The position numbers were made by a program, and so were the translations under genes. This document shows positions 42,773 through 50,070 of a DNA stretch of 59,919 nt, piece by piece (positions within the stretch are counted from its first letter, which is position 1; every line of letters starts with the position of its first letter). The stretch lies in the UHGV virus genome UHGV-0342645; one strand, written 5' to 3'. The DNA comes from a virus. Under the pieces are notes generated by a model. The model was not told the DNA's origin, ran no database searches, and was given only the letters and a program-made list of their open reading frames with translations.

Positions 42773-43048
42773 TTAAGCCCATTCTCTTAGAGGTTGATCA
42801 AGAATAACACTGTGGTTACTGTACTGGGTAAAATCAAATGAGTCATCAATAACTCTTACGTTTACATAATATCCTTCATTTTGAATATATGTTGGTTCGT
42901 CTGATAGACTTTCAACTTCTGTATAGGTGTAGCCTATTACGTCAAGTAAAATCTGGTTTTGCAAAGTTTCATTGTATTCCCAATCAATAACCACAAGGAA
43001 ATCTTCAAATGCTTTCTTATCCTTAAATTTCATCGTTAAGTCTTTCAT
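42773..43048 (-). CDS. hypothetical protein (between the two fibre genes)
   Basis: 91 aa with a 4-nt overlap with the upstream fibre gene. Confidence 0.55.
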   Translation of the reverse strand: MKDLTMKFKDKKAFEDFLVVIDWEYNETLQNQILLDVIGYTYTEVESLSDEPTYIQNEGYYVNVRVIDDSFDFTQYSNHSVILDQPLREWA

Positions 43049-45183
43049 ACAGACTCCTTCATTTGACGATCTGTTAATTCTTTATGCCAGATTCTAAAGT
43101 TACGAATGTGACCGAAAAGATGACGTAGGCCGCTATTATTCTGCCCGCCAATCCTGAAGAAATAACCAGATTTAACACCGACATGATCCGTGGTTTTAGG
43201 AGTCCCATGCTGGGCATTGCTAACGAAATGCACATTACCAGATTCATTTAAAACAAATCCAAGAACAGATTTTTGTTCAAATAATACTGGCGATACGGCA
43301 ACTACTGTACTACCGTCTTTATTGTACATCGTAACACTAGGAAATAATGTTGAACTAATAGCAACACTTATATATTGACCCGGAGTTGTGCTCCCACCAC
43401 TGGTATCAAAAATTCGTGGTGCTGCATTTGGCGTTTCGTTCCAGTTTGTATGAACTTCAGCTAGAAATGTTAAAGGTGGTGTACCGATATTGTTATTTGT
43501 TGGTATATTCACCATATCACTGGCTCTTGTGACTGGCGTTTCCTCAGTAATAATAAACGAAGAAGCGCACGAACCGCCTTCGAGCTGAGGAGTTGCAACA
43601 TAAATATAATCATCTGCGCCAGTGCTTCCCCCTTTTGGTGGTGCATATTGCACCATCGCACCGATCATATTTTCTGTATCAAGTGCCTTAATTGTTGCCT
43701 CAAAGAAAATCCATTTGCTTGCTTCATTTTTAACAGCCCTTGCAGTAATACGACTTGCATCGCCGCCAGTTTTATCAATCGATAAATCTGTCATATTTAA
43801 GAAAGCATCACCCACGAATTTGTGGGTAGATCCATCATATTCTTCAAATCGTAATCGACATCTTAAATTTGGAGTCCCACTTTGTACCCTGCATGAGATA
43901 GTTACATACTTTTCATCGCCGGTAACATCATATCCTTTGCTTCCAGATACTGTGACAATAGAAAGGGATGAGGTTTGCCCCACCATTTCTGGTTTTAATG
44001 TGAATTTTGCGTACTGGAAACCAAAATCATCTACACCTGATGTATTTAAAATCATATTTGATGACTTGTTCCACTTTGATGGATTTGTGCTATTTATTAA
44101 CAGGTTTGTACGCTGCCCTTCAATCAGCAATCCATACTTTTCAAAGCGAGGTTCATCGATTGCAGCCTCTGTCAGCACACCAGATTTATTAATGTAAGTT
44201 GCTTTTGATGCACGTTTAAACTTAACAATCTTGTCACCAGGCATTGTAATTTCATCGTCATCAATTACAATCTTTTTATATGAAGGCGAAAAGCCCGTAA
44301 TCATATCTAGAGAATCGTTAAACGGTATCCACACATCAGGTAACGGCTGAATTTCTGGTGCATTGTTGGCAGCAGATTCCGCACGGTCAGCTTCCGTCTT
44401 TGCACGGTCCGCGTCGTTTTTAGCTGCGGTTGCGCTTGTGCTTGCGTTACCTGCTTGTTTTCCGGCTTCGGTAGCACTATTACCCGCTTCCGTAGCAGAA
44501 GCAGCGGCAGCGTCTTTTAAAGCGGTAGTTTCGGACACAGCGGCATCTTTAATTGCTTGCGTCTCACTTACTGCATTGTTCTTAATAGTCTGTGTATTGG
44601 ACTTTAACTTTTCAACATCCTTTTTGAGATTTGTTATTGTGGTTACAGCTTGTGTTGCAGTGTTGGCGGAACCAGCAGCACCTGCTTGTGCTTGTTTAGC
44701 TGCATCCGCGTTGGCCTTAGAATCATTCTTGTAAGTTAATGCTTGACTTGCTGAGGTTGCAGCCGCCGCTTTACTGTTACGTGCGTCCGTAGCGTCTGCG
44801 TTTGCTGCCGCAGCAGAACGTCCAGCTTGTAACGCATATTCCTCAGAGTTAGCCACAAGTCGCTGGACTTGCTTAATAACGTCCGGTGTCAACTGTTCCG
44901 GAGCCCAGTTAATCAAATAGCCGTTGAGCGAACCTTCAGGACTATCGCCATAAATAACAATTTCACCCGCTTTATAAGGCTCAATACCCTGCGGACCAAT
45001 GATCACCTTATAATGGCCTGTTTGTACGGTTACATTGTACGCACCTTCCCCGTCTGTGCGGAATATTGCTTCACTTCCGTTCAATACCGTAATTGTATTT
45101 CCTTTTGCAATAAGCGCAACCGTAGCGTTGATAATTGGCTTATTCAAACCATCCAGCAAGATACCGTGCAAGCGCGTAGCCAT
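43045..45183 (-). CDS. side tail fibre protein (lambda Stf-like N-terminus)
   Basis: ATG 45183 with GGAG SD. N-terminus MATRLHGILLDGLNKPIINATVALIAKGNT...GHYKVII resembles the prophage tail-fibre N-terminal domain of lambda Stf. Ala-rich coiled-coil segment. Confidence 0.7.
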   Translation of the reverse strand: MATRLHGILLDGLNKPIINATVALIAKGNTITVLNGSEAIFRTDGEGAYNVTVQTGHYKVIIGPQGIEPYKAGEIVIYGDSPEGSLNGYLINWAPEQLTPDVIKQVQRLVANSEEYALQAGRSAAAANADATDARNSKAAAATSASQALTYKNDSKANADAAKQAQAGAAGSANTATQAVTTITNLKKDVEKLKSNTQTIKNNAVSETQAIKDAAVSETTALKDAAAASATEAGNSATEAGKQAGNASTSATAAKNDADRAKTEADRAESAANNAPEIQPLPDVWIPFNDSLDMITGFSPSYKKIVIDDDEITMPGDKIVKFKRASKATYINKSGVLTEAAIDEPRFEKYGLLIEGQRTNLLINSTNPSKWNKSSNMILNTSGVDDFGFQYAKFTLKPEMVGQTSSLSIVTVSGSKGYDVTGDEKYVTISCRVQSGTPNLRCRLRFEEYDGSTHKFVGDAFLNMTDLSIDKTGGDASRITARAVKNEASKWIFFEATIKALDTENMIGAMVQYAPPKGGSTGADDYIYVATPQLEGGSCASSFIITEETPVTRASDMVNIPTNNNIGTPPLTFLAEVHTNWNETPNAAPRIFDTSGGSTTPGQYISVAISSTLFPSVTMYNKDGSTVVAVSPVLFEQKSVLGFVLNESGNVHFVSNAQHGTPKTTDHVGVKSGYFFRIGGQNNSGLRHLFGHIRNFRIWHKELTDRQMKESV

Positions 45184-45201
45184 AATTTCTCCCACATTTA
45201 A

Positions 45202-45229
45202 TTGACTTACTCAACCTAACAAGTATATT
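45202..45229 (+). promoter_or_regulatory. strong sigma70-like promoter of the lipoprotein cassette
   Basis: TTGACT (45202..45207), 16 nt spacer, TATATT (45224..45229). Confidence 0.6.
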
Positions 45230-45266
45230 AAACTTGAACCTTGACAACAACCTAAAAGGAGTCCCG

Positions 45267-45500
45267 ATGAAACGTTCTATTGTAATTTTAGCATTAACAT
45301 TTCTGTTAGCTGCTTGCGGTACTGGTCTGGACACAGGAAAGCCTAATTCCGGTGTTATTCCAAAACCTTTAGACCGTGACGGTAACGGTTCTTTAATCTA
45401 TGATACCGAAAAACTTCCAATGACTGGGCAATGGTGTCATGAGATTGATCACGAGTACCGACGAATTGGTAGTCCTTCCAACTGTGTTATAGATTACTAA
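45267..45500 (+). CDS. small outer-membrane-type lipoprotein, candidate superinfection-exclusion factor (Llp/Cor-like role)
   Basis: ATG 45267 with AGGAG SD. MKRSIVILALTFLLAACG has a signal peptide plus lipobox. 77 aa with two further Cys. Opposite strand, inside the tail module. Confidence 0.65.
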   Translation: MKRSIVILALTFLLAACGTGLDTGKPNSGVIPKPLDRDGNGSLIYDTEKLPMTGQWCHEIDHEYRRIGSPSNCVIDY

Positions 45501-45506
45501 AAATTA

Positions 45507-45530
45507 CCCCGCATTAGCGGGGTTTTGTTT
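45507..45530. terminator. bidirectional intrinsic terminator
   Basis: CCCCGC-atta-GCGGGG with TTTTGTTT on the plus side and TAATTTTT on the minus side. Serves the lipoprotein gene (+) and the J-like gene (-). Confidence 0.75.
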
Positions 45531-48492
45531 AACCAGTGAATGAACCGGATCCGTGCGAAACAATAATAGTAGGCGAGGCTATATACGCCCCTCTATTGTT
45601 CTGAGCGGAAATTGTAATTCTTACCGTAACGTTTGGACCAGTTACAACAGCAGAATGCATAATAAGTCGTTCTATATCCTGTACTCTGGAAGAGCCCTCA
45701 GATCCGTTAATATTTATCGTACCTGCACCATTCCCACTCACGTTTGCTATAACACAGACGTGTCTTGCGTGACCTGAGGAGGATGAATCTGTGTATGTCA
45801 TTACCTTTTCCAGTACACCGTTATTCGTTCGACTTACATTCGTCCCAGTATGCATGTTTGCAATATCGCCAATAAAGCTTTGAGCTTCAACAGTTCCGGT
45901 AAACTTACCATTAGTTGCATACACGGTCCCTCTAAACTCACCGTTGGTTGCGTAAATAGTCCCTCTTGCAATTATGTTGTTAACGTGGAAATAACCGTCT
46001 TTAGTAATTGCCCAACCTTGATCGTCACCGTTCCAGTTATAGGATTGAATAATATTACCAATTTTTGCGTTATTGATAGAACCGTCTTCAATGAAGCCTT
46101 CACGAATAAAGGTTTGACCGTTCTTAATAACAAACGCTAAGCTTGCAGCCCCCGCTACCGGATTATAAACAGCAAAGTTGTCCGCACTTACCATCCAGTA
46201 TGATTGATATTGCCCACCCTGCCCTTCCACGCCCATCTGCATACCAGCAACGTATTTATTTCCGTTGTTGTCAATCTGAACCTTCTGCCCCCATTGTGCG
46301 GATAATTTACCGTTTAAATCAGCAAACGCGGAAGCTTGTTGTTGTACAGTAGCGCTAACATTGCCCACACTGCTCTGGACTGAGTTGATCTGCTCCGTAT
46401 ATTTAGTGTCATTTTCCTCTATAGTTGTTTGAAGGGATGTCACACCATCTTCAACTTCTTTAACCGTTGCAACAAGATTTTTATATGATTCAGTTTGCGA
46501 TAACGTGTCTTCTACAAAGTCAATCAGCTGTCCAGTTTCTGCATGAACTACAGCCGCAACTTCCACGAATGCGGACGAACCAAATGCGTTTATCGAACGG
46601 ACGTACCAGTAATAAGTGTGGTCATTCTTAAGGTTTTGGTCGGTCCATGTTGTACCCATCCCTTTTCTTGTTGCTTGCGCTTCAACAATTTCGGTTGCAT
46701 AAGATGGTAATTTTGTTTCACCGGATGTCCAGAAATCAAATTGCGTACTAACGCTAGTCAAATCTTTAATACGCGGAATTAACGTTATAGCAAAATACCC
46801 ATTTTGGACTTCTACATTGGACGGAGGTGGCGGTGCCTGAATGTTAAATTCCAAATAGGCTTCAGGCGACACAGCACCATTATAGCCAACAGCTTGCACA
46901 TGAGCGGTATAACCGCCGCGCAATAGCCCAGTTACACGCACGTTCTGCCCAGGAACCTGTGCGGTCCATATCGTTTGCCCGTTCTGCTTAATTGCAACAC
47001 GGTTATATGAAAAAGATCCTATATTGCTCCACGTTAATACACCTTGTACAACGTCGCTAATCTGCAACACCTGATACTGCAAATTCTGAGGTTGGGGGAT
47101 TCCACCAGTAGGAAGATCGACAAGATCCGGACGCTCTATTGGTTTACCGATAGCATCATCCCACATCTCAAGGAAGTCCTGACGTAATGTAAGGTTAACA
47201 CCTCCTTTAGGATCAAAAGACCATTTAGTTACACGCATTTCAACATCGCGCATACCAATCTGTGGGATTGATACTTTTAAGTACATGCCTGGGCGGAATT
47301 TATACCCCTTCATATTACAAGGAATTTCAAGCGTTCTGCCTACACGTTTACGACGTAAAATAATATTTGCAAGACGCTGGGCTTGGTATGGACTTACAAC
47401 GAAGCGGTATTCCATATCCTGCGTGATTTCCCCTCCATCTTTCTCCACCCATTCCTTAACCACAACTGAGGGGAAGTCTGCTTCTGTATAGTTTTGTTCC
47501 GGATCGATGAATGTACCTGTGATGGTGTTAGTACGGTCTTTATATGATGTCTCCGGTACTATTTTAATATCACCAGCAATACAACTTTCGTCCAACGTCA
47601 TTGTTGCAGGGCCGTAATAAGCGCCAACAAGCAAGCCGTGTTTACCCCCAATATATGTTAGTTCACCGCCGCAAGCTTCCAGCATTGCATCGAGTATTTT
47701 GGACGGGGCCTCTTCAACCTCAAACTCGCCATTAATGCGATAGCGGCGTTCAGATGTACCATCTGCGTTATTTATGATTTCATCACAAATATTGGCAGCT
47801 TCAATAAACTGATCCCAGTTTATGCTGGAGTCTTTACGATTTAAGTACACACGAAAATAATCCAATATCACTAACGCAGCGTTATCGCTAAAGACTTCTG
47901 TCCCTGAACGCGGGTCGTACACCCTTCTACCTTTCTTTAAAACTTTAACGTTAGGTAAACCAGAAGGGAACTTTTCAGCATCAAACTTATAGGTCAGTCT
48001 TAGCCATGCTAAACCTTTACCAATCATGTCCTCCTTCCACGAAGGACAATTATTCAACATATAGGGGTCAACTGTTTGACGGTCGTTATGAAACTCCCAC
48101 GATACCAAATCCCCAAAAGTTTCAATAGCATCGTCGCCAAGCCATATTGGTCCTATCCCTTCTAGCCTATGGGATGCAAGGACAAGCACCATATTTAGAA
48201 TTTCTTTATCATCCTGATCACCAGCTTGTTCCTCTGCAAAGGATAATAGACCGGATGAAACAGTTGTACCGTAGACAACAACTCTTGAAGAGGCAGCGGA
48301 CCGCAAAACTTGTTTACGTTCTTGCTGACCTTTAAAGGCGTTGAAATCAAATTTAGGCGTTTTGGTAAGCAAAGCACCCGCTGCGGTTGCAGCCATGCCT
48401 ATCACTAAAGCGGTTGTAACGGAAATAATACTAGCAGCCGCGGCAGCGGACGCGCCTAGTGCAATTGCTGCTCCAATTATTGCTGGTGGCAT
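45529..48492 (-). CDS. tail tip / host-specificity protein (lambda J-like)
   Basis: 987 aa after the minor tail genes. Hydrophobic Ala/Gly-rich N-terminus, and central segments that look like fibronectin type III repeats. Call rests on position and size. Confidence 0.75.
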   Translation of the reverse strand: MPPAIIGAAIALGASAAAAASIISVTTALVIGMAATAAGALLTKTPKFDFNAFKGQQERKQVLRSAASSRVVVYGTTVSSGLLSFAEEQAGDQDDKEILNMVLVLASHRLEGIGPIWLGDDAIETFGDLVSWEFHNDRQTVDPYMLNNCPSWKEDMIGKGLAWLRLTYKFDAEKFPSGLPNVKVLKKGRRVYDPRSGTEVFSDNAALVILDYFRVYLNRKDSSINWDQFIEAANICDEIINNADGTSERRYRINGEFEVEEAPSKILDAMLEACGGELTYIGGKHGLLVGAYYGPATMTLDESCIAGDIKIVPETSYKDRTNTITGTFIDPEQNYTEADFPSVVVKEWVEKDGGEITQDMEYRFVVSPYQAQRLANIILRRKRVGRTLEIPCNMKGYKFRPGMYLKVSIPQIGMRDVEMRVTKWSFDPKGGVNLTLRQDFLEMWDDAIGKPIERPDLVDLPTGGIPQPQNLQYQVLQISDVVQGVLTWSNIGSFSYNRVAIKQNGQTIWTAQVPGQNVRVTGLLRGGYTAHVQAVGYNGAVSPEAYLEFNIQAPPPPSNVEVQNGYFAITLIPRIKDLTSVSTQFDFWTSGETKLPSYATEIVEAQATRKGMGTTWTDQNLKNDHTYYWYVRSINAFGSSAFVEVAAVVHAETGQLIDFVEDTLSQTESYKNLVATVKEVEDGVTSLQTTIEENDTKYTEQINSVQSSVGNVSATVQQQASAFADLNGKLSAQWGQKVQIDNNGNKYVAGMQMGVEGQGGQYQSYWMVSADNFAVYNPVAGAASLAFVIKNGQTFIREGFIEDGSINNAKIGNIIQSYNWNGDDQGWAITKDGYFHVNNIIARGTIYATNGEFRGTVYATNGKFTGTVEAQSFIGDIANMHTGTNVSRTNNGVLEKVMTYTDSSSSGHARHVCVIANVSGNGAGTININGSEGSSRVQDIERLIMHSAVVTGPNVTVRITISAQNNRGAYIASPTIIVSHGSGSFTG

Positions 48493-48909
48493 TTACATCC
48501 TCCAAATGTCGGTAATTTCAATCTTACTTAATGGAAAAGTTTCAACACCGTTTGGACCCATAGCCCAAACAACACCCGACCATAATACGCCAGCGGTTAA
48601 ACCTAAGTCACCATTAAATGTAACCACATCTCCGCGCTGCGCATATTTCTTATCGACACGCTGCGTGATGTATACATCCAACATTGTAGGCAAATACGTG
48701 CTCTTGGCTTTTTCCAGCATAAATCTCTTGCTTCCAAGCTCTGTGCTGTACTGACCAATTATCCCGTCTGCAATACTAGTCCCGTATTGTGCGTCTAAAC
48801 ATTTAGCGACAAATATACAGCAATCATTTTGCCCCCAAACAAAAGGGACTTCCTTTAGCTCGTTTACTGTGGTTAATAGGCGTGTCTGCCACCCTGCGGT
48901 TTTATTCAT
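48493..48909 (-). CDS. tail assembly protein with NlpC/P60-like Cys motif (gpK-like position)
   Basis: ATG 48909 (ATGAATAA overlap with the upstream stop). The 194-aa track form overlaps the upstream gene. Contains VWGQNDCCIFVAKC. Confidence 0.5.
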   Translation of the reverse strand: MNKTAGWQTRLLTTVNELKEVPFVWGQNDCCIFVAKCLDAQYGTSIADGIIGQYSTELGSKRFMLEKAKSTYLPTMLDVYITQRVDKKYAQRGDVVTFNGDLGLTAGVLWSGVVWAMGPNGVETFPLSKIEITDIWRM

Positions 48910-49486
48910 AGTAGAATCCCGGCGCATCTTTCTTACTTCCCCAAAAGATTGAACGTTCTGCCATTTGTGCAACATATCTAAAAAAGCGGTCCCCTGGATG
49001 TAACCGCTGTTGACTTTCATCCGTGTAGCGGTCAGGCAATCCCTGCGACCATCTTTCAAATACGTTAGCAACAACATAACTTAATGCGTTCTGTTGACCC
49101 GCTTGCATTGCAGTATCTGTAATAAAACCTTCAAAGAGAACGTTAGCACCAGTTACAACACCTTGACTATTTAATACCGCAATGTAGCATATAACTGTAC
49201 ATCCGATTACTTCTTCGTTCAACGTCTCACCAACAAGACTCATATCAAGTCCGTTAAGTGTCATAGACATGGTACTTGAACTTGTGCTGTTTTCTTCAGT
49301 AACCGAGCCAACGTCCCCTAACGTTCCAACTCCAAGAAACGTTTGACCGTCAATAACAACAACTCCGGTCCCTGTATGGACTCTAGTTATACCAGAAGGG
49401 AAATGTATTTCCGCAGCAAGGACAAGCTTAACATCCGGTTGATCCATGGCAGTTAAAACACTATTGCTAAAAGGGCTGAACAGCAT
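48902..49486 (-). CDS. minor tail protein (gpL-like position)
   Basis: 194 aa, TAATG-coupled to the upstream gene. Confidence 0.55.
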   Translation of the reverse strand: MLFSPFSNSVLTAMDQPDVKLVLAAEIHFPSGITRVHTGTGVVVIDGQTFLGVGTLGDVGSVTEENSTSSSTMSMTLNGLDMSLVGETLNEEVIGCTVICYIAVLNSQGVVTGANVLFEGFITDTAMQAGQQNALSYVVANVFERWSQGLPDRYTDESQQRLHPGDRFFRYVAQMAERSIFWGSKKDAPGFYYE

Positions 49487-50070
49487 TAGAAAGCCTCCGA
49501 AAACTTTAAAGTAAATGAGTTGTTGAAAGCTGGTTGACGTTTGACGCCGTTGGTATTGTCGGATAAGCGAAAGGCGCCTTGTGGTTTCTGCGTTTCAACT
49601 TTAGCACCATTGGGGGGAATAGTTCTCAGCATTGGCGCAATATTTAAGATAACGTTACCAGCACCATCGCTCCATGCGTCCTCAGTGACCATCTTTAACT
49701 CACCGTTCACGGTAATATAGTCCCCTTCCCATAAGACTTTTCTGTTAGGTGTCCAACCTTTAGTCGCCAATGTAGTTCCTGTGTTGCTTGCACCATTAAC
49801 CACAGGTGTTCCCATAGGAGGTCTGCCCCAACGTCCAAAATCTTGAAGCATAATACGACCAGATTTACCATCCAGCTTAACTAGAGTGGATTCTAATTTT
49901 CTAGATTGCCAATCGTTTAAATTGTTAAAAGATAAAGTTGCCTCCCATCTAGACCCAGGATAGGAGACAGTTTGTGTAGCCCCATTGAAGGGGCTAGTGA
50001 ATTCCACGGAGTTAGATACCAGATACCACTCCATCGAAGATGGTCTAAGTTCCTCAGGCCAGTCAAGCAT
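49486..50070 (-). CDS. minor / distal tail protein (gpM-like position)
   Basis: 194 aa, directly after the tape measure gene. Confidence 0.55.
   Translation of the reverse strand: MLDWPEELRPSSMEWYLVSNSVEFTSPFNGATQTVSYPGSRWEATLSFNNLNDWQSRKLESTLVKLDGKSGRIMLQDFGRWGRPPMGTPVVNGASNTGTTLATKGWTPNRKVLWEGDYITVNGELKMVTEDAWSDGAGNVILNIAPMLRTIPPNGAKVETQKPQGAFRLSDNTNGVKRQPAFNNSFTLKFSEAF

What the first reader, a model, noticed from the sequence alone, without database searches (positions are those of the whole stretch)
45202..45530. Self-contained opposite-strand lipoprotein cassette between the J-like gene and the side-fibre gene
Seen: a near-consensus promoter (TTGACT-16-TATATT), an AGGAG SD, a 77-aa ORF with signal peptide and lipobox (LLAAC|G) plus two further Cys, and a bidirectional terminator (45507..45530). 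All of it is antisense to the surrounding late tail operon. Known: T5 Llp and the Cor proteins of T1/phi80-type phages are small lipoproteins encoded next to receptor-binding genes. They block the phage's own outer-membrane receptor and so cause superinfection exclusion. Inference: this has the same role here, which makes it a pointer to the receptor-binding locus. The cassette also places a terminator and a head-on promoter between J and the fibre genes, which should affect fibre expression.
Basis: partly seen in the sequence, partly recalled or inferred. Interest (0 to 1): 0.5.

Follow-up and report, generated by a model that had tools for sequence, protein, structure and literature searches.

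The report
LamB-linked phage superinfection-exclusion lipoprotein cassette
This is a real, self-expressed gene for a small outer-membrane lipoprotein, placed next to the receptor-binding end of a coliphage tail-tip gene; a tested relative stops LamB-using phages, including lambda, from infecting, so the finding is correct but largely already described.

Summary
Window 45202-45530 holds a promoter (TTGACT-16-TATATT), a Shine-Dalgarno site, a 77-aa lipoprotein ORF (45267-45500) and a bidirectional hairpin terminator. All of it is antisense to the J-like gene and the lateral-fibre gene. The ORF is under strong purifying selection (median dN/dS 0.07).

The window is a Seuratvirus-like (Queuovirinae) phage. 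The protein matches phrog_12984 over its full length. It is 96-97% identical to genes of phages KurtStettler (Bas22) and Dru_SM1. It is 55% identical (E 9e-32) to Lpp010 of phage mEp010, which on expression excludes the LamB-dependent phages mEp010, mEp044 and mEp554, and also lambda.

In all 36 loci examined the gene lies 29-40 nt, across a conserved hairpin, from the stop codon of a J gene with an HK97-type C-terminal domain. Among BASEL small siphoviruses it occurs in all four LamB-dependent phages and in none of the eight FhuA- or LptD-dependent ones.

The likely receptor is LamB. The protein is an analogue of T5 Llp and Cor, not a homologue: there is no sequence similarity and it sits in a different PHROG. 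How a lipoprotein disables LamB is still unknown. The claimed effect on fibre expression was not tested.

The parts
45202..45229 (+). Sigma-70-type promoter: TTGACT (-35), 16-nt spacer, TATATT (-10)
   Evidence: It scores 10/12 and is the best site in 42-49 kb. It is conserved at -64/-65 from the ATG in Queuovirinae and lambdoid-like loci, with an invariant -10 hexamer. The match alone is not above chance.
45256..45261 (+). Shine-Dalgarno site AAGGAG, 5 nt before the ATG
   Evidence: Read directly from the sequence. AAAGGAGTCCC(A/G)ATG is conserved across relatives.
45267..45500 (+). Lipoprotein precursor gene, 77 aa plus stop codon
   Evidence: Translation. Matches phrog_12984 'lipoprotein' at E 2.5e-49 over 1-77 of 77. 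55% identical to Lpp010, E 9e-32. Median dN/dS 0.075.
45267..45314 (+). Signal peptide (residues 1-16). The lipobox L-A-A-C is completed by Cys17 at 45315-45317.
   Evidence: Sequence features. Weak matches to lipoprotein signal-peptide profiles, confined to residues 1-18. The Cys is invariant in 29 family sequences.
45315..45497 (+). Mature 61-aa lipoprotein. Gly at +2 predicts sorting to the outer membrane. Conserved motifs are PNSGV, DTEKLPxTGQWC and SPSNC. C57 and C73 probably form a disulfide.
   Evidence: Alignment A1: PNSGV, T47, E48 and G54 are invariant; C57 and C73 are conserved in at least 90% of sequences. The disulfide and the membrane sorting are inferred.
45506..45523 (.). GC-rich hairpin acting as a bidirectional intrinsic terminator between the convergent lipoprotein and J genes
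   Evidence: Seven pairs, six of them G-C, with T-runs on both strands. -14.9 kcal/mol on both strands. Present in all loci, with compensatory variants CCCCGC/GCGGGG versus CCCCTC/GAGGGG. Annotated as the 'H1 loop' in 9g and as terminators in mEp phages.
45529..45958 (-). C-terminal ~143 codons of J: HK97-type receptor-binding domain, inferred to bind LamB
   Evidence: 88.8% DNA identity to the HK97 J 3' end over 45517-45918. The last 145 aa are 86% identical to HK97 and 70% identical to mEp010. This part is absent from the J of LptD-dependent VogelGryff.
45529..48492 (-). J-like tail-tip (central fibre) gene, 987 aa
   Evidence: Pfam Phage_Tail_Tip and Ig_J_second; phrog_31 'central tail fiber J'.
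43045..45183 (-). Lateral tail-fibre gene, divergent from the lipoprotein gene. Its ATG is 19 nt from the -35 box.
   Evidence: Pfam phage_tail_N at residues 5-138; phrog_1419. The start at ATG 45183 was chosen by comparison with the KurtStettler annotation.
45184..45958 (.). Exchangeable host-recognition module: J receptor-binding domain, hairpin, lipoprotein gene and promoter
   Evidence: Similarity to VogelGryff (LptD-dependent) stops at 45183 and resumes at 45959. Similarity to slur01-type phages breaks at the hairpin, at 45524.

Best explanation
The cassette is an autonomously expressed, 'moron'-style unit (own promoter, ORF and terminator). It belongs to the host-recognition module of a Seuratvirus-like virulent coliphage.

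Proposed sequence of events (all steps inferred unless marked otherwise):
1. Host RNA polymerase transcribes the gene from its sigma-70 promoter, independently of the late tail operon. Early timing is inferred by analogy with T5 llp.
2. The 77-aa precursor is exported, lipidated at Cys17 and cleaved by signal peptidase II.
3. Because residue +2 is Gly, the Lol system delivers the 61-aa mature protein to the outer membrane.
4. There it acts on LamB, the terminal receptor recognised by the HK97-type C-terminal domain of the adjacent J protein.
5. As a result, further LamB-dependent phages cannot infect, and progeny phage are not wasted on cell debris.

Exclusion of LamB-dependent phages and of lambda has been shown experimentally for the homologue Lpp010, not for this protein. 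The physical mechanism on LamB is unknown. Candidates are binding at the periplasmic rim or in the lumen of the porin that alters the surface loops, as the lipoprotein Rtp45 does on LptD, or exposure of the lipoprotein at the cell surface.
For: Anatomy: promoter, Shine-Dalgarno site, lipobox ORF and bidirectional terminator are all present.

Gene status: a real gene under strong constraint, with median dN/dS 0.075. The lipobox Cys is invariant and two further Cys are near-invariant.

Family: phrog_12984 over the full length, E 2.5e-49. Lpp010 (mEp010_116) falls in the same PHROG and is 55% identical, E 9e-32.

Experiment on the homologue: Lpp010 expressed from a plasmid excludes LamB-dependent mEp010, mEp044 and mEp554, and also lambda. 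The unrelated type-A lipoprotein excludes the OmpA-dependent phages (PMC11893012).

Linkage: in all 36 loci (window, Queuovirinae, Dhillonvirus, lambdoid-like prophages, mEpimmI) the gene is convergent with J, 29-40 nt from its stop. The last 250 aa of J are always HK97-type, with E from 7e-20 to 3e-171.

Association with receptor: the closest relative, KurtStettler (Bas22), depends on LamB, shown with complementation. The tblastn search listed all 44 phage records with a homologue. These include Bas21-24, all LamB-dependent, and none of Bas14-20 or Bas25, which use FhuA or LptD. Bas19, Bas20 and Bas25 were confirmed to be in the collection and to carry a different 321-aa antisense gene in this slot.

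Target is host, not phage: the lipoprotein is far more conserved than the J domain. For example, 97% versus 39% identity against slur01-type loci. Lpp010 also excludes lambda, whose receptor-binding domain is not homologous. Both points favour a host target.

Prior proposals for this family: PMC9586334, and PMC8594841 and PMC11990801.
Against: - There is no experiment on this protein. The tested homologue is only 55% identical.
- Lpp010 failed to exclude mEp013, which is also LamB-dependent and encodes an identical mature lipoprotein. Exclusion is therefore not absolute for every LamB user.
- Binding to LamB has never been shown for any family member.
- LamB has no plug domain and no known allostery, so the Llp-FhuA mechanism cannot simply be transferred.
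- HK97 has the same type of J domain but lacks the cassette, so the link is not obligatory.
- Neither lipidation nor cellular location has been shown.
- Structure predictions were of low confidence, with pLDDT 66.7 and 50.2.
- The association counts are not phylogenetically independent.
Confidence: 0.8

Rival explanations
1. The lipoprotein excludes phages after adsorption. It would block passage of the tail tip or DNA through the periplasm or inner membrane, rather than inactivating LamB as a binding site.
For: LamB lacks a plug and has no known allostery. Lpp010 excludes both lambda and mEp phages, whose J receptor-binding domains are unrelated. A periplasm-facing lipoprotein is well placed to interfere with events below the outer membrane. 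From my own knowledge, post-adsorption exclusion is known in HK97 (gp15).
Against: From established knowledge, lambda and HK97-type phages use different inner-membrane components (ManYZ versus PtsG), so LamB is the obvious shared element. The gene is linked strictly to the LamB-type J domain, not to tape-measure alleles. The escape of mEp013, which differs in its J terminus, points to the receptor-binding interface.
Confidence: 0.12
2. The cassette is a prophage-style moron whose main role is host fitness, for example serum resistance or adhesion as with lambda Bor or Lom. Phage exclusion would be incidental.
For: It has the moron architecture and sits in the slot downstream of J where lambda carries lom. 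Copies exist in lambdoid-like prophages and temperate mEp phages.
Against: It is conserved in strictly virulent Queuovirinae and Dhillonvirus, which never reside in a host. There is no similarity to Bor or Lom, or to any Pfam family beyond the signal peptide. An exclusion phenotype is shown for the homologue. Several prophage copies are decayed. Only 3 of 5426 complete E. coli genomes carry it at megablast level.
Confidence: 0.04
3. It is the outer-membrane spanin subunit (Rz1-like), or another lysis lipoprotein.
For: It is a small outer-membrane lipoprotein of about 60 aa, the same general size class as o-spanins.
Against: It lies in the tail module, with no i-spanin gene overlapping or adjacent. 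In the near-identical Dru_SM1, the endolysin-holin cassette is about 40 kb away. It has no C-terminal transmembrane segment, so it is not a u-spanin. The homologue gives exclusion, not lysis.
Confidence: 0.01

Closest known systems
Type-C Lpp exclusion lipoprotein of mEpimmI phages (Lpp010 = mEp010 gp116; PMC11893012)
   Same: Homologous over the whole length: 55% identity, E 9e-32, same phrog_12984. Both have a lipobox, the PNSGV and TGQWC motifs and two conserved Cys. Both are convergent with a J gene that has an HK97-type terminus, across a terminator hairpin. The phages that carry them depend on LamB.
   Different: The mature protein here is 3 residues shorter in the linker after the lipid anchor (61 versus 64 aa). 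It sits in a virulent Seuratvirus rather than a temperate phage. It has a different upstream region with its own near-consensus promoter, whereas the mEp loci carry an extra 37-42-aa ORF upstream. This allele has not been tested.
Orthologues in Queuovirinae: KurtStettler bas22_0021, Dru_SM1 NGRRMQZB_21, WildeMaa (Bas23), 9g gp69, Seurat and CAjan lipoproteins
   Same: 82-97% identical, in the same slot and with the same promoter and terminator. The Bas23 copy was named a likely superinfection-exclusion lipoprotein for LamB in PMC9586334.
   Different: Allelic differences only. The window phage is about 93-95% identical in DNA to the nearest records around this locus.
T5 Llp and the Cor proteins of T1, phi80, HK022 and mEp167 (phrog_1119)
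   Same: The design and logic match. Both are ~77-aa precursors giving ~61-aa outer-membrane lipoproteins with two further Cys. Both have their own promoter, are encoded next to the receptor-binding gene on the opposite strand, and serve receptor-directed exclusion (Llp biology).
   Different: No detectable sequence similarity: BLASTP gives no alignment at E <= 100, and the PHROGs differ. The target there is the TonB-dependent transporter FhuA, acting through plug-mediated allostery. Here the target is presumably the plug-less porin LamB. T5 llp is divergent from the pb5 gene, whereas this gene is convergent with J. A shared fold could not be tested.
Rtp45 of phage Rtp, and the SE lipoprotein of Oekolampad (target LptDE; PMC12685063)
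   Same: A ~6-kDa exclusion lipoprotein with an internal disulfide, encoded in the same 'RBP locus downstream of gpJ' of small siphoviruses. Its target is not a TonB-dependent transporter. It acts from the periplasmic side, with a hairpin reaching into the barrel lumen.
   Different: The receptor differs (LptDE). No PDB chain matched the family by sequence or by profile. The LptD-type alleles in Queuovirinae fill the slot with a 321-aa antisense gene instead.
Morons of lambdoid phages (e.g. lambda lom downstream of J; HK97 morons)
   Same: An autonomous promoter-gene-terminator unit inserted between genes of the late operon. It is present or absent among otherwise similar genomes, and lambda lom occupies the same post-J position.
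   Different: It is oriented against the operon. It is tied to a particular receptor-binding allele. It is also kept by virulent phages.

Membership tests
Type-C Lpp / phrog_12984 LamB-linked exclusion lipoproteins | Full-length sequence homology to family members, including the tested Lpp010 | tested here: met
   phrog_12984 at E 2.5e-49 over 1-77 of 77. BLASTP against Lpp010 gives 55% identity, E 9e-32. Lpp010 itself hits phrog_12984 at E 1e-26.
Type-C Lpp / phrog_12984 LamB-linked exclusion lipoproteins | Lipoprotein signal peptide with a lipobox Cys and no Asp at +2; conserved core with two further Cys | tested here: met
   The lipobox is LAAC with G at +2. C17 is invariant; C57 and C73 are conserved in at least 90% of 29 sequences.
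Type-C Lpp / phrog_12984 LamB-linked exclusion lipoproteins | Position convergent with a J gene that carries the HK97-type (LamB-associated) C-terminal domain | tested here: met
   29 nt separate the gene from the J stop codon. The last 145 aa of J are 86% identical to HK97 and 70% identical to mEp010.
Type-C Lpp / phrog_12984 LamB-linked exclusion lipoproteins | Expression excludes LamB-dependent phages | not testable with these tools
   Shown only for Lpp010 (PMC11893012).
Llp/Cor family (phrog_1119) | Sequence or profile similarity to Llp or Cor | tested here: not met
   BLASTP against T5 Llp gives no alignment at E <= 100. T5 Llp falls in phrog_1119, while the query hits only phrog_12984 at E <= 0.1.
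Llp/Cor family (phrog_1119) | Shared Llp/Cor fold | tested here: inconclusive
   The AF2 models have low confidence (pLDDT 66.7 and 50.2). Foldseek against PDB found nothing at E <= 0.001.
Llp/Cor family (phrog_1119) | Targets FhuA, and the cognate phage uses FhuA | tested here: not met
   Carriers with a known receptor use LamB. The FhuA-dependent phages Bas15-17 are absent from the 44 phage records with a homologue. The target of this protein itself is inferred.
Rtp45-type LptD exclusion lipoproteins | Sequence similarity to Rtp45 (PDB 9RPS) | tested here: inconclusive
   No PDB chain matched at E <= 10 by phmmer, and the profile search gave only three chance-level hits. I did not verify that 9RPS is in the PDB copy.
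Moron (autonomous unit within a late operon) | Own promoter and terminator flanking one ORF between late genes; present or absent among related genomes | tested here: met
   Promoter and terminator are present. HK97 lacks the unit, while lambdoid-like loci with 92-93% identical J termini have it. Transcription was not measured.
o-spanin (Rz1-like) | Located in the lysis cassette, embedded in or next to an i-spanin gene | tested here: not met
   It lies in the tail module. In Dru_SM1 the lysis genes are at 59-60.5 kb and this gene is at 18.2 kb.

The most novel reading that the evidence does not exclude
The lipoprotein disables LamB, a trimeric porin with no plug and no known allostery, by a mechanism not yet described for any exclusion protein. 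One possibility is that it threads a disulfide-stapled beta-hairpin into the maltoporin lumen from the periplasm, or clamps the trimer rim, so that the surface loops used by two unrelated receptor-binding domains (lambda-type and HK97-type) are both remodelled. Another is that it is flipped to the cell surface. Its extreme conservation against fast-evolving J termini would make it a generic anti-LamB-phage factor. The escape of mEp013 would then be a natural counter-adaptation.
Probability: 0.4. Interest if true: 0.55.

Novelty: new member of a known kind. Interest (0 to 1): 0.25.

Why it matters
The cassette marks the host-recognition module of this phage and allows its terminal receptor to be predicted from sequence, as LamB. 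It also shows that the receptor-binding domain and its cognate exclusion factor travel as a ~775-bp exchangeable block across at least four phage groups.

The biology is already outlined in the literature, so the window adds another allele rather than a new principle. One question remains open and testable: how a ~6-kDa lipoprotein inactivates a porin that has no plug and no known allostery. This compact, highly conserved family would be a good subject for a LamB-lipoprotein structure. On the practical side, such genes matter for phage-cocktail design, because a phage carrying one may protect infected cells from other LamB-dependent phages.

Tried and rejected
- Structure route. Two AlphaFold2 runs were made, on the full precursor with 29 sequences and on the mature part with 28. 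They gave pLDDT 66.7 and 50.2. Foldseek against PDB gave only noise. No statement about the fold is therefore possible.
- Sequence route to solved structures. phmmer and profile hmmsearch against PDB found nothing meaningful.
- Curated libraries. Pfam, NCBIfam and PADLOC gave only sub-threshold signal-peptide matches (LptM_cons, LPAM_1), or nothing.
- Exhaustive profile search of 1.8 billion representative proteins. It returned only three small-protein clusters, plus two repeat proteins that match weakly. The family is therefore narrow, and no bridge to Llp or Cor was found.
- Scan of one genome per species. It returned only a spurious Streptomyces hit that contains a stop codon.
- The 9g genome paper does not discuss the gene or the 'H1/H2 loops' annotated in its record.
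- Spanin and chance-ORF readings were rejected.
- Promoter significance from the match alone was rejected, because 10/12 sites are as common as in shuffles.
- A search for a small lipoprotein ORF in the alternative LptD-type slot of VogelGryff found none of at least 40 aa.
Full report
**1. What is in the sequence**

Between the stop codon of a 987-aa J-like tail-tip gene (45529-48492, - strand) and the start of a lateral tail-fibre gene (43045-45183, - strand) lies a compact unit on the + strand. The J gene carries Pfam Phage_Tail_Tip and Ig_J_second and matches phrog_31. The fibre gene carries Pfam phage_tail_N and matches phrog_1419.

The unit has four elements:
- A promoter, TTGACT-16-TATATT, at 45202-45229. 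It scores 10/12 and is the best site in 42-49 kb.
- An AAGGAG ribosome-binding site at 45256-45261.
- An ATG at 45267 opening a 77-codon ORF that ends at 45500.
- A 7-bp GC-rich hairpin at 45506-45523, with T-runs on both strands and -14.9 kcal/mol in either orientation.

The protein has a typical lipoprotein signal peptide: MKR, a hydrophobic core, and the lipobox LAA|C17. Residue +2 is Gly, which by the standard +2 rule predicts sorting to the outer membrane. The mature part has two more cysteines, C57 and C73.

- Signal peptidase II cuts before the Cys, not after it.
- The fibre gene most likely starts at ATG 45183, 83 nt from the lipoprotein ATG, as annotated in the closest relative.
- A 10/12 promoter match is no rarer here than in shuffled sequence, 18 versus 18.4 +/- 4.2 per window. 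The promoter is credible because of where it sits and because it is conserved (section 4), not because of its score.

**2. It is a real gene, and the window is a Seuratvirus-like phage**

Around this locus the window is 93-95% identical in DNA to Escherichia phages Dru_SM1 and KurtStettler (Bas22), both Queuovirinae, genus Seuratvirus. The ORF matches phrog_12984 ('lipoprotein') end to end at E 2.5e-49.

A tblastn search of 50,697 phage records found it in 44:
- Seuratvirus and Nonagvirus phages, at 82-97% identity.
- Dhillonvirus phages, at 67-72%.
- One Enterobacter phage.
- The temperate mEpimmI phages, at 52-55%.

The family is narrow. There are 28 clusters at 90% identity among 5.8 billion proteins. 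A profile search of 1.8 billion representatives found only three small-protein clusters.

The alignment shows an invariant lipobox Cys and an invariant PNSGV motif. The DTEKLPxTGQWC block and both distal Cys are near-invariant. Over the conserved 52 codons the median pairwise dN/dS is 0.075. Against 9g, dN is 0.025 and dS is 1.06. This is a protein under strong purifying selection, not a chance ORF.

**3. What the family does**

The mEpimmI 'type-C' lipoprotein Lpp010 is gene mEp010_116. It is 55% identical to the window protein (E 9e-32) and falls in the same PHROG.

Negrete-Mendez et al. 2025 (PMC11893012) report three relevant results:
- mEp010, mEp013, mEp044 and mEp554 all require LamB.
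- Plasmid expression of Lpp010 excludes mEp010, mEp044, mEp554 and, unexpectedly, lambda. It does not exclude mEp013.
- An unrelated type-A lipoprotein excludes the OmpA-dependent phages.

For the Queuovirinae, the BASEL study showed that KurtStettler depends on LamB, with complementation. Its S5 Table lists these receptors:
- Bas21-24: LamB.
- Bas14, 18, 19, 20 and 25: LptD.
- Bas15-17: FhuA.

The 44 tblastn hits, all of which were listed, include Bas21, 22, 23 and 24 and none of the other eight. I confirmed that Bas19, Bas20 and Bas25 are in the collection. In the same slot they carry a 321-aa antisense gene and a shorter J.

Counting the mEp phages as the paper describes them, the family is present in 8 of 8 LamB-dependent phages and 0 of 10 non-LamB phages. 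Fisher's exact test gives about 2e-5 by my own arithmetic. The phages are related, so this is an association, not a probability.

van den Berg et al. 2022 had already remarked that LamB-targeting phages such as Bas23 'likely do have SE lipoproteins' downstream of gpJ, and asked how they could work on a receptor without allostery (PMC9586334). The two BASEL papers describe this locus in general terms as encoding receptor-binding proteins together with exclusion factors.

**4. Anatomy of the module across relatives**

I examined 36 loci: the window, fetched phage records, and 31 IMG/VR contigs.

- **Position.** In every locus the lipoprotein gene is convergent with a J-like gene and ends 29-40 nt from its stop codon.
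- **Hairpin.** A GC hairpin lies between the two genes in every locus. Its sequence varies in a compensatory way, CCCCGC...GCGGGG versus CCCCTC...GAGGGG, and the outer pairs also covary. The hairpin is annotated independently as a stem-loop in 9g and as a Rho-independent terminator in the mEp genomes.
- **J terminus.** The last 250 aa of the neighbouring J are always of the HK97 type, with E from 7e-20 to 3e-171. They are not of the lambda type. The window's last 145 aa are 86% identical to HK97 and 70% identical to mEp010. From my own knowledge, HK97 is a LamB-dependent phage.
- **Promoter.** TT(G/A/T)ACT-16-TATATT lies at -64/-65 from the ATG in all Queuovirinae and lambdoid-like loci (9g has a weaker TTTAGC-17-TATATT). 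The -10 hexamer is invariant. The mEp loci have a different upstream region with an extra small ORF.
- **Module boundaries.** DNA similarity to the LptD-dependent Seuratvirus VogelGryff stops exactly at the fibre ATG (45183) and resumes at 45959 inside J. The replaceable unit is therefore 45184-45958: the J receptor-binding domain, the hairpin, the lipoprotein gene and the promoter.
- **Recombination within the module.** HK97 matches only 45517-45918. slur01-type phages match 44875-45524 but not the J terminus. The hairpin is thus also a recombination joint inside the module.
- **Relative conservation.** The lipoprotein is much more conserved than the J terminus it travels with, for example 97% versus 39% identity against slur01-type loci. 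That fits a lipoprotein that contacts an invariant host protein and a J domain that evolves quickly.

**5. Mechanism**

Shown directly by the sequence: the cassette architecture, the lipoprotein signature, purifying selection, and linkage to the LamB-type J domain.

Shown by published experiment on homologues or near-identical phages: exclusion of LamB-dependent phages and of lambda by Lpp010, and LamB dependence of Bas21-24.

Inferred:
- The window phage uses LamB.
- Its lipoprotein is lipidated and reaches the outer membrane.
- It neutralises LamB.
- It is transcribed by host RNA polymerase independently of the late operon. By analogy with T5 llp this would be early in infection.
- Its main benefit to a virulent phage is to protect the infected cell, and to stop progeny being lost on debris.

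Lpp010 blocks lambda, whose receptor-binding domain is not homologous to the HK97 type. From established knowledge, lambda and HK97-type phages use different inner-membrane components. LamB is therefore the obvious common target.

How the block works physically is unknown. The Llp-FhuA mechanism relies on the plug domain. The closer analogy is Rtp45. It is a ~6-kDa disulfide-containing lipoprotein that binds LptDE from the periplasm and pushes a hairpin up the barrel lumen, which remodels the surface loops.

mEp013 escapes Lpp010 although it encodes an identical mature lipoprotein. Its J terminus is 65% identical to that of mEp010 and 77% identical to that of mEp044. This shows that exclusion can be bypassed, probably at the binding interface.

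**6. Comparison with known families**

The protein works like Llp and Cor but is not a member of that family.
- T5 Llp is by coincidence also 77 codons long. It is also encoded next to a receptor-binding gene, pb5, with its own promoter.
- T5 Llp falls in phrog_1119. BLASTP between the two proteins gives no alignment at E <= 100.
- No PDB sequence or profile hit was obtained.
- A shared fold could not be tested, because both AlphaFold2 models were of low confidence.

The protein is a member of phrog_12984, the type-C Lpp family.

The unit also meets the descriptive definition of a moron: promoter, gene and terminator set between late genes. It occupies the post-J position where lambda carries lom.

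A spanin role is excluded by context. In Dru_SM1 the lysis cassette lies about 40 kb away.

**7. The fibre-expression claim**

The -35 box is 19 nt from the fibre ATG, and the hairpin is 5 nt from the J stop codon. Any fibre transcript coming from the J operon must therefore read through the hairpin and run antisense across the whole cassette.

No - strand promoter of at least 9/12 lies between 45183 and 45530. Attenuation or transcriptional interference is therefore plausible. It is untested, and the arrangement is conserved in all lineages. The alternative LptD-type allele also places an antisense gene in this slot.

**8. Verdict**

The feature is another allele of a small family that has been described and partly characterised. 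Interest is modest. The one open and worthwhile question is the structural mechanism by which this lipoprotein disables LamB.

Noticed in passing
L017:~1037-1270; L031 and L032 (lipoprotein ORFs); L033:2522-2751; protein cluster P0025: Some prophage-like copies of the lipoprotein gene look chimeric or decayed. L017 joins a window-type N-terminal half to an mEp-type C-terminal half and has ATA in place of ATG. L031 and L032 have ATA starts and the last Cys changed to Arg. L033 and P0025 (seen on 29 contigs) are frameshifted after ...LPMTG.
   Followed up: partly
L038:6473-7474 (VogelGryff); L045:4467-5432 (ChristophMerian); L046:4590-5555 (FritzHoffmann): LptD-dependent Queuovirinae fill the same J/fibre slot with a 321-333-aa antisense ORF, and their J is 60-110 aa shorter. 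This is presumably a separate receptor-binding protein. No small lipoprotein ORF of at least 40 aa is visible there in VogelGryff, so these phages may lack an exclusion lipoprotein or encode it elsewhere.
   Followed up: partly
window 48493-50070 (- strand): Immediately upstream of J there are three 194-aa mechanical ORFs. Two of them (48902-49486 and 49486-50070) correspond to the two adjacent, equal-length (585-nt) tail genes annotated in KurtStettler, Dru_SM1 and other relatives (distal tail protein and tail protein). They may be tandem paralogues.
   Followed up: no
window 45315-45497 versus P0031 (704 aa) and P0030 (4467 aa): The family profile weakly matches repeated units of two large repeat proteins. 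P0031 has MORN_2-like beta-hairpin repeats, and the pairwise E-value is 7e-4. The lipoprotein core may amount to about one and a half such hairpin units. The match is weak and may reflect composition only.
   Followed up: partly
window 43125-43403 and 44427-44801 (lateral fibre gene): The lateral-fibre gene is mosaic relative to KurtStettler. It is about 82% identical in blocks, interrupted by stretches with no match, and the proteins differ in length (712 versus 583 aa). The C-terminus has a weak ConA-like lectin (Laminin_G_3) match. This fits the highly variable lateral-fibre locus described for this subfamily.
   Followed up: no
L039:2111-2239; L003:2747-2860; L040:2725-2844: The mEpimmI loci carry an extra 37-42-aa ORF on the same strand, just upstream of the lipoprotein gene. 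It has no PHROG match, and its function and reality are unknown.
   Followed up: no
L041:26350-26663 (phage T5): T5 llp is exactly the same length as the window ORF (77 codons plus stop) and is annotated with overlapping divergent promoters shared with the pb5 gene. The architectures have converged without any sequence similarity.
   Followed up: yes
E. coli genomes H56-H58: Only 3 of 5426 complete E. coli genomes carry the cassette at megablast level (87-89% identity). In each it lies next to a TipJ/DUF1983 tail-tip gene, and PGAP annotates it as a hypothetical protein.
   Followed up: no
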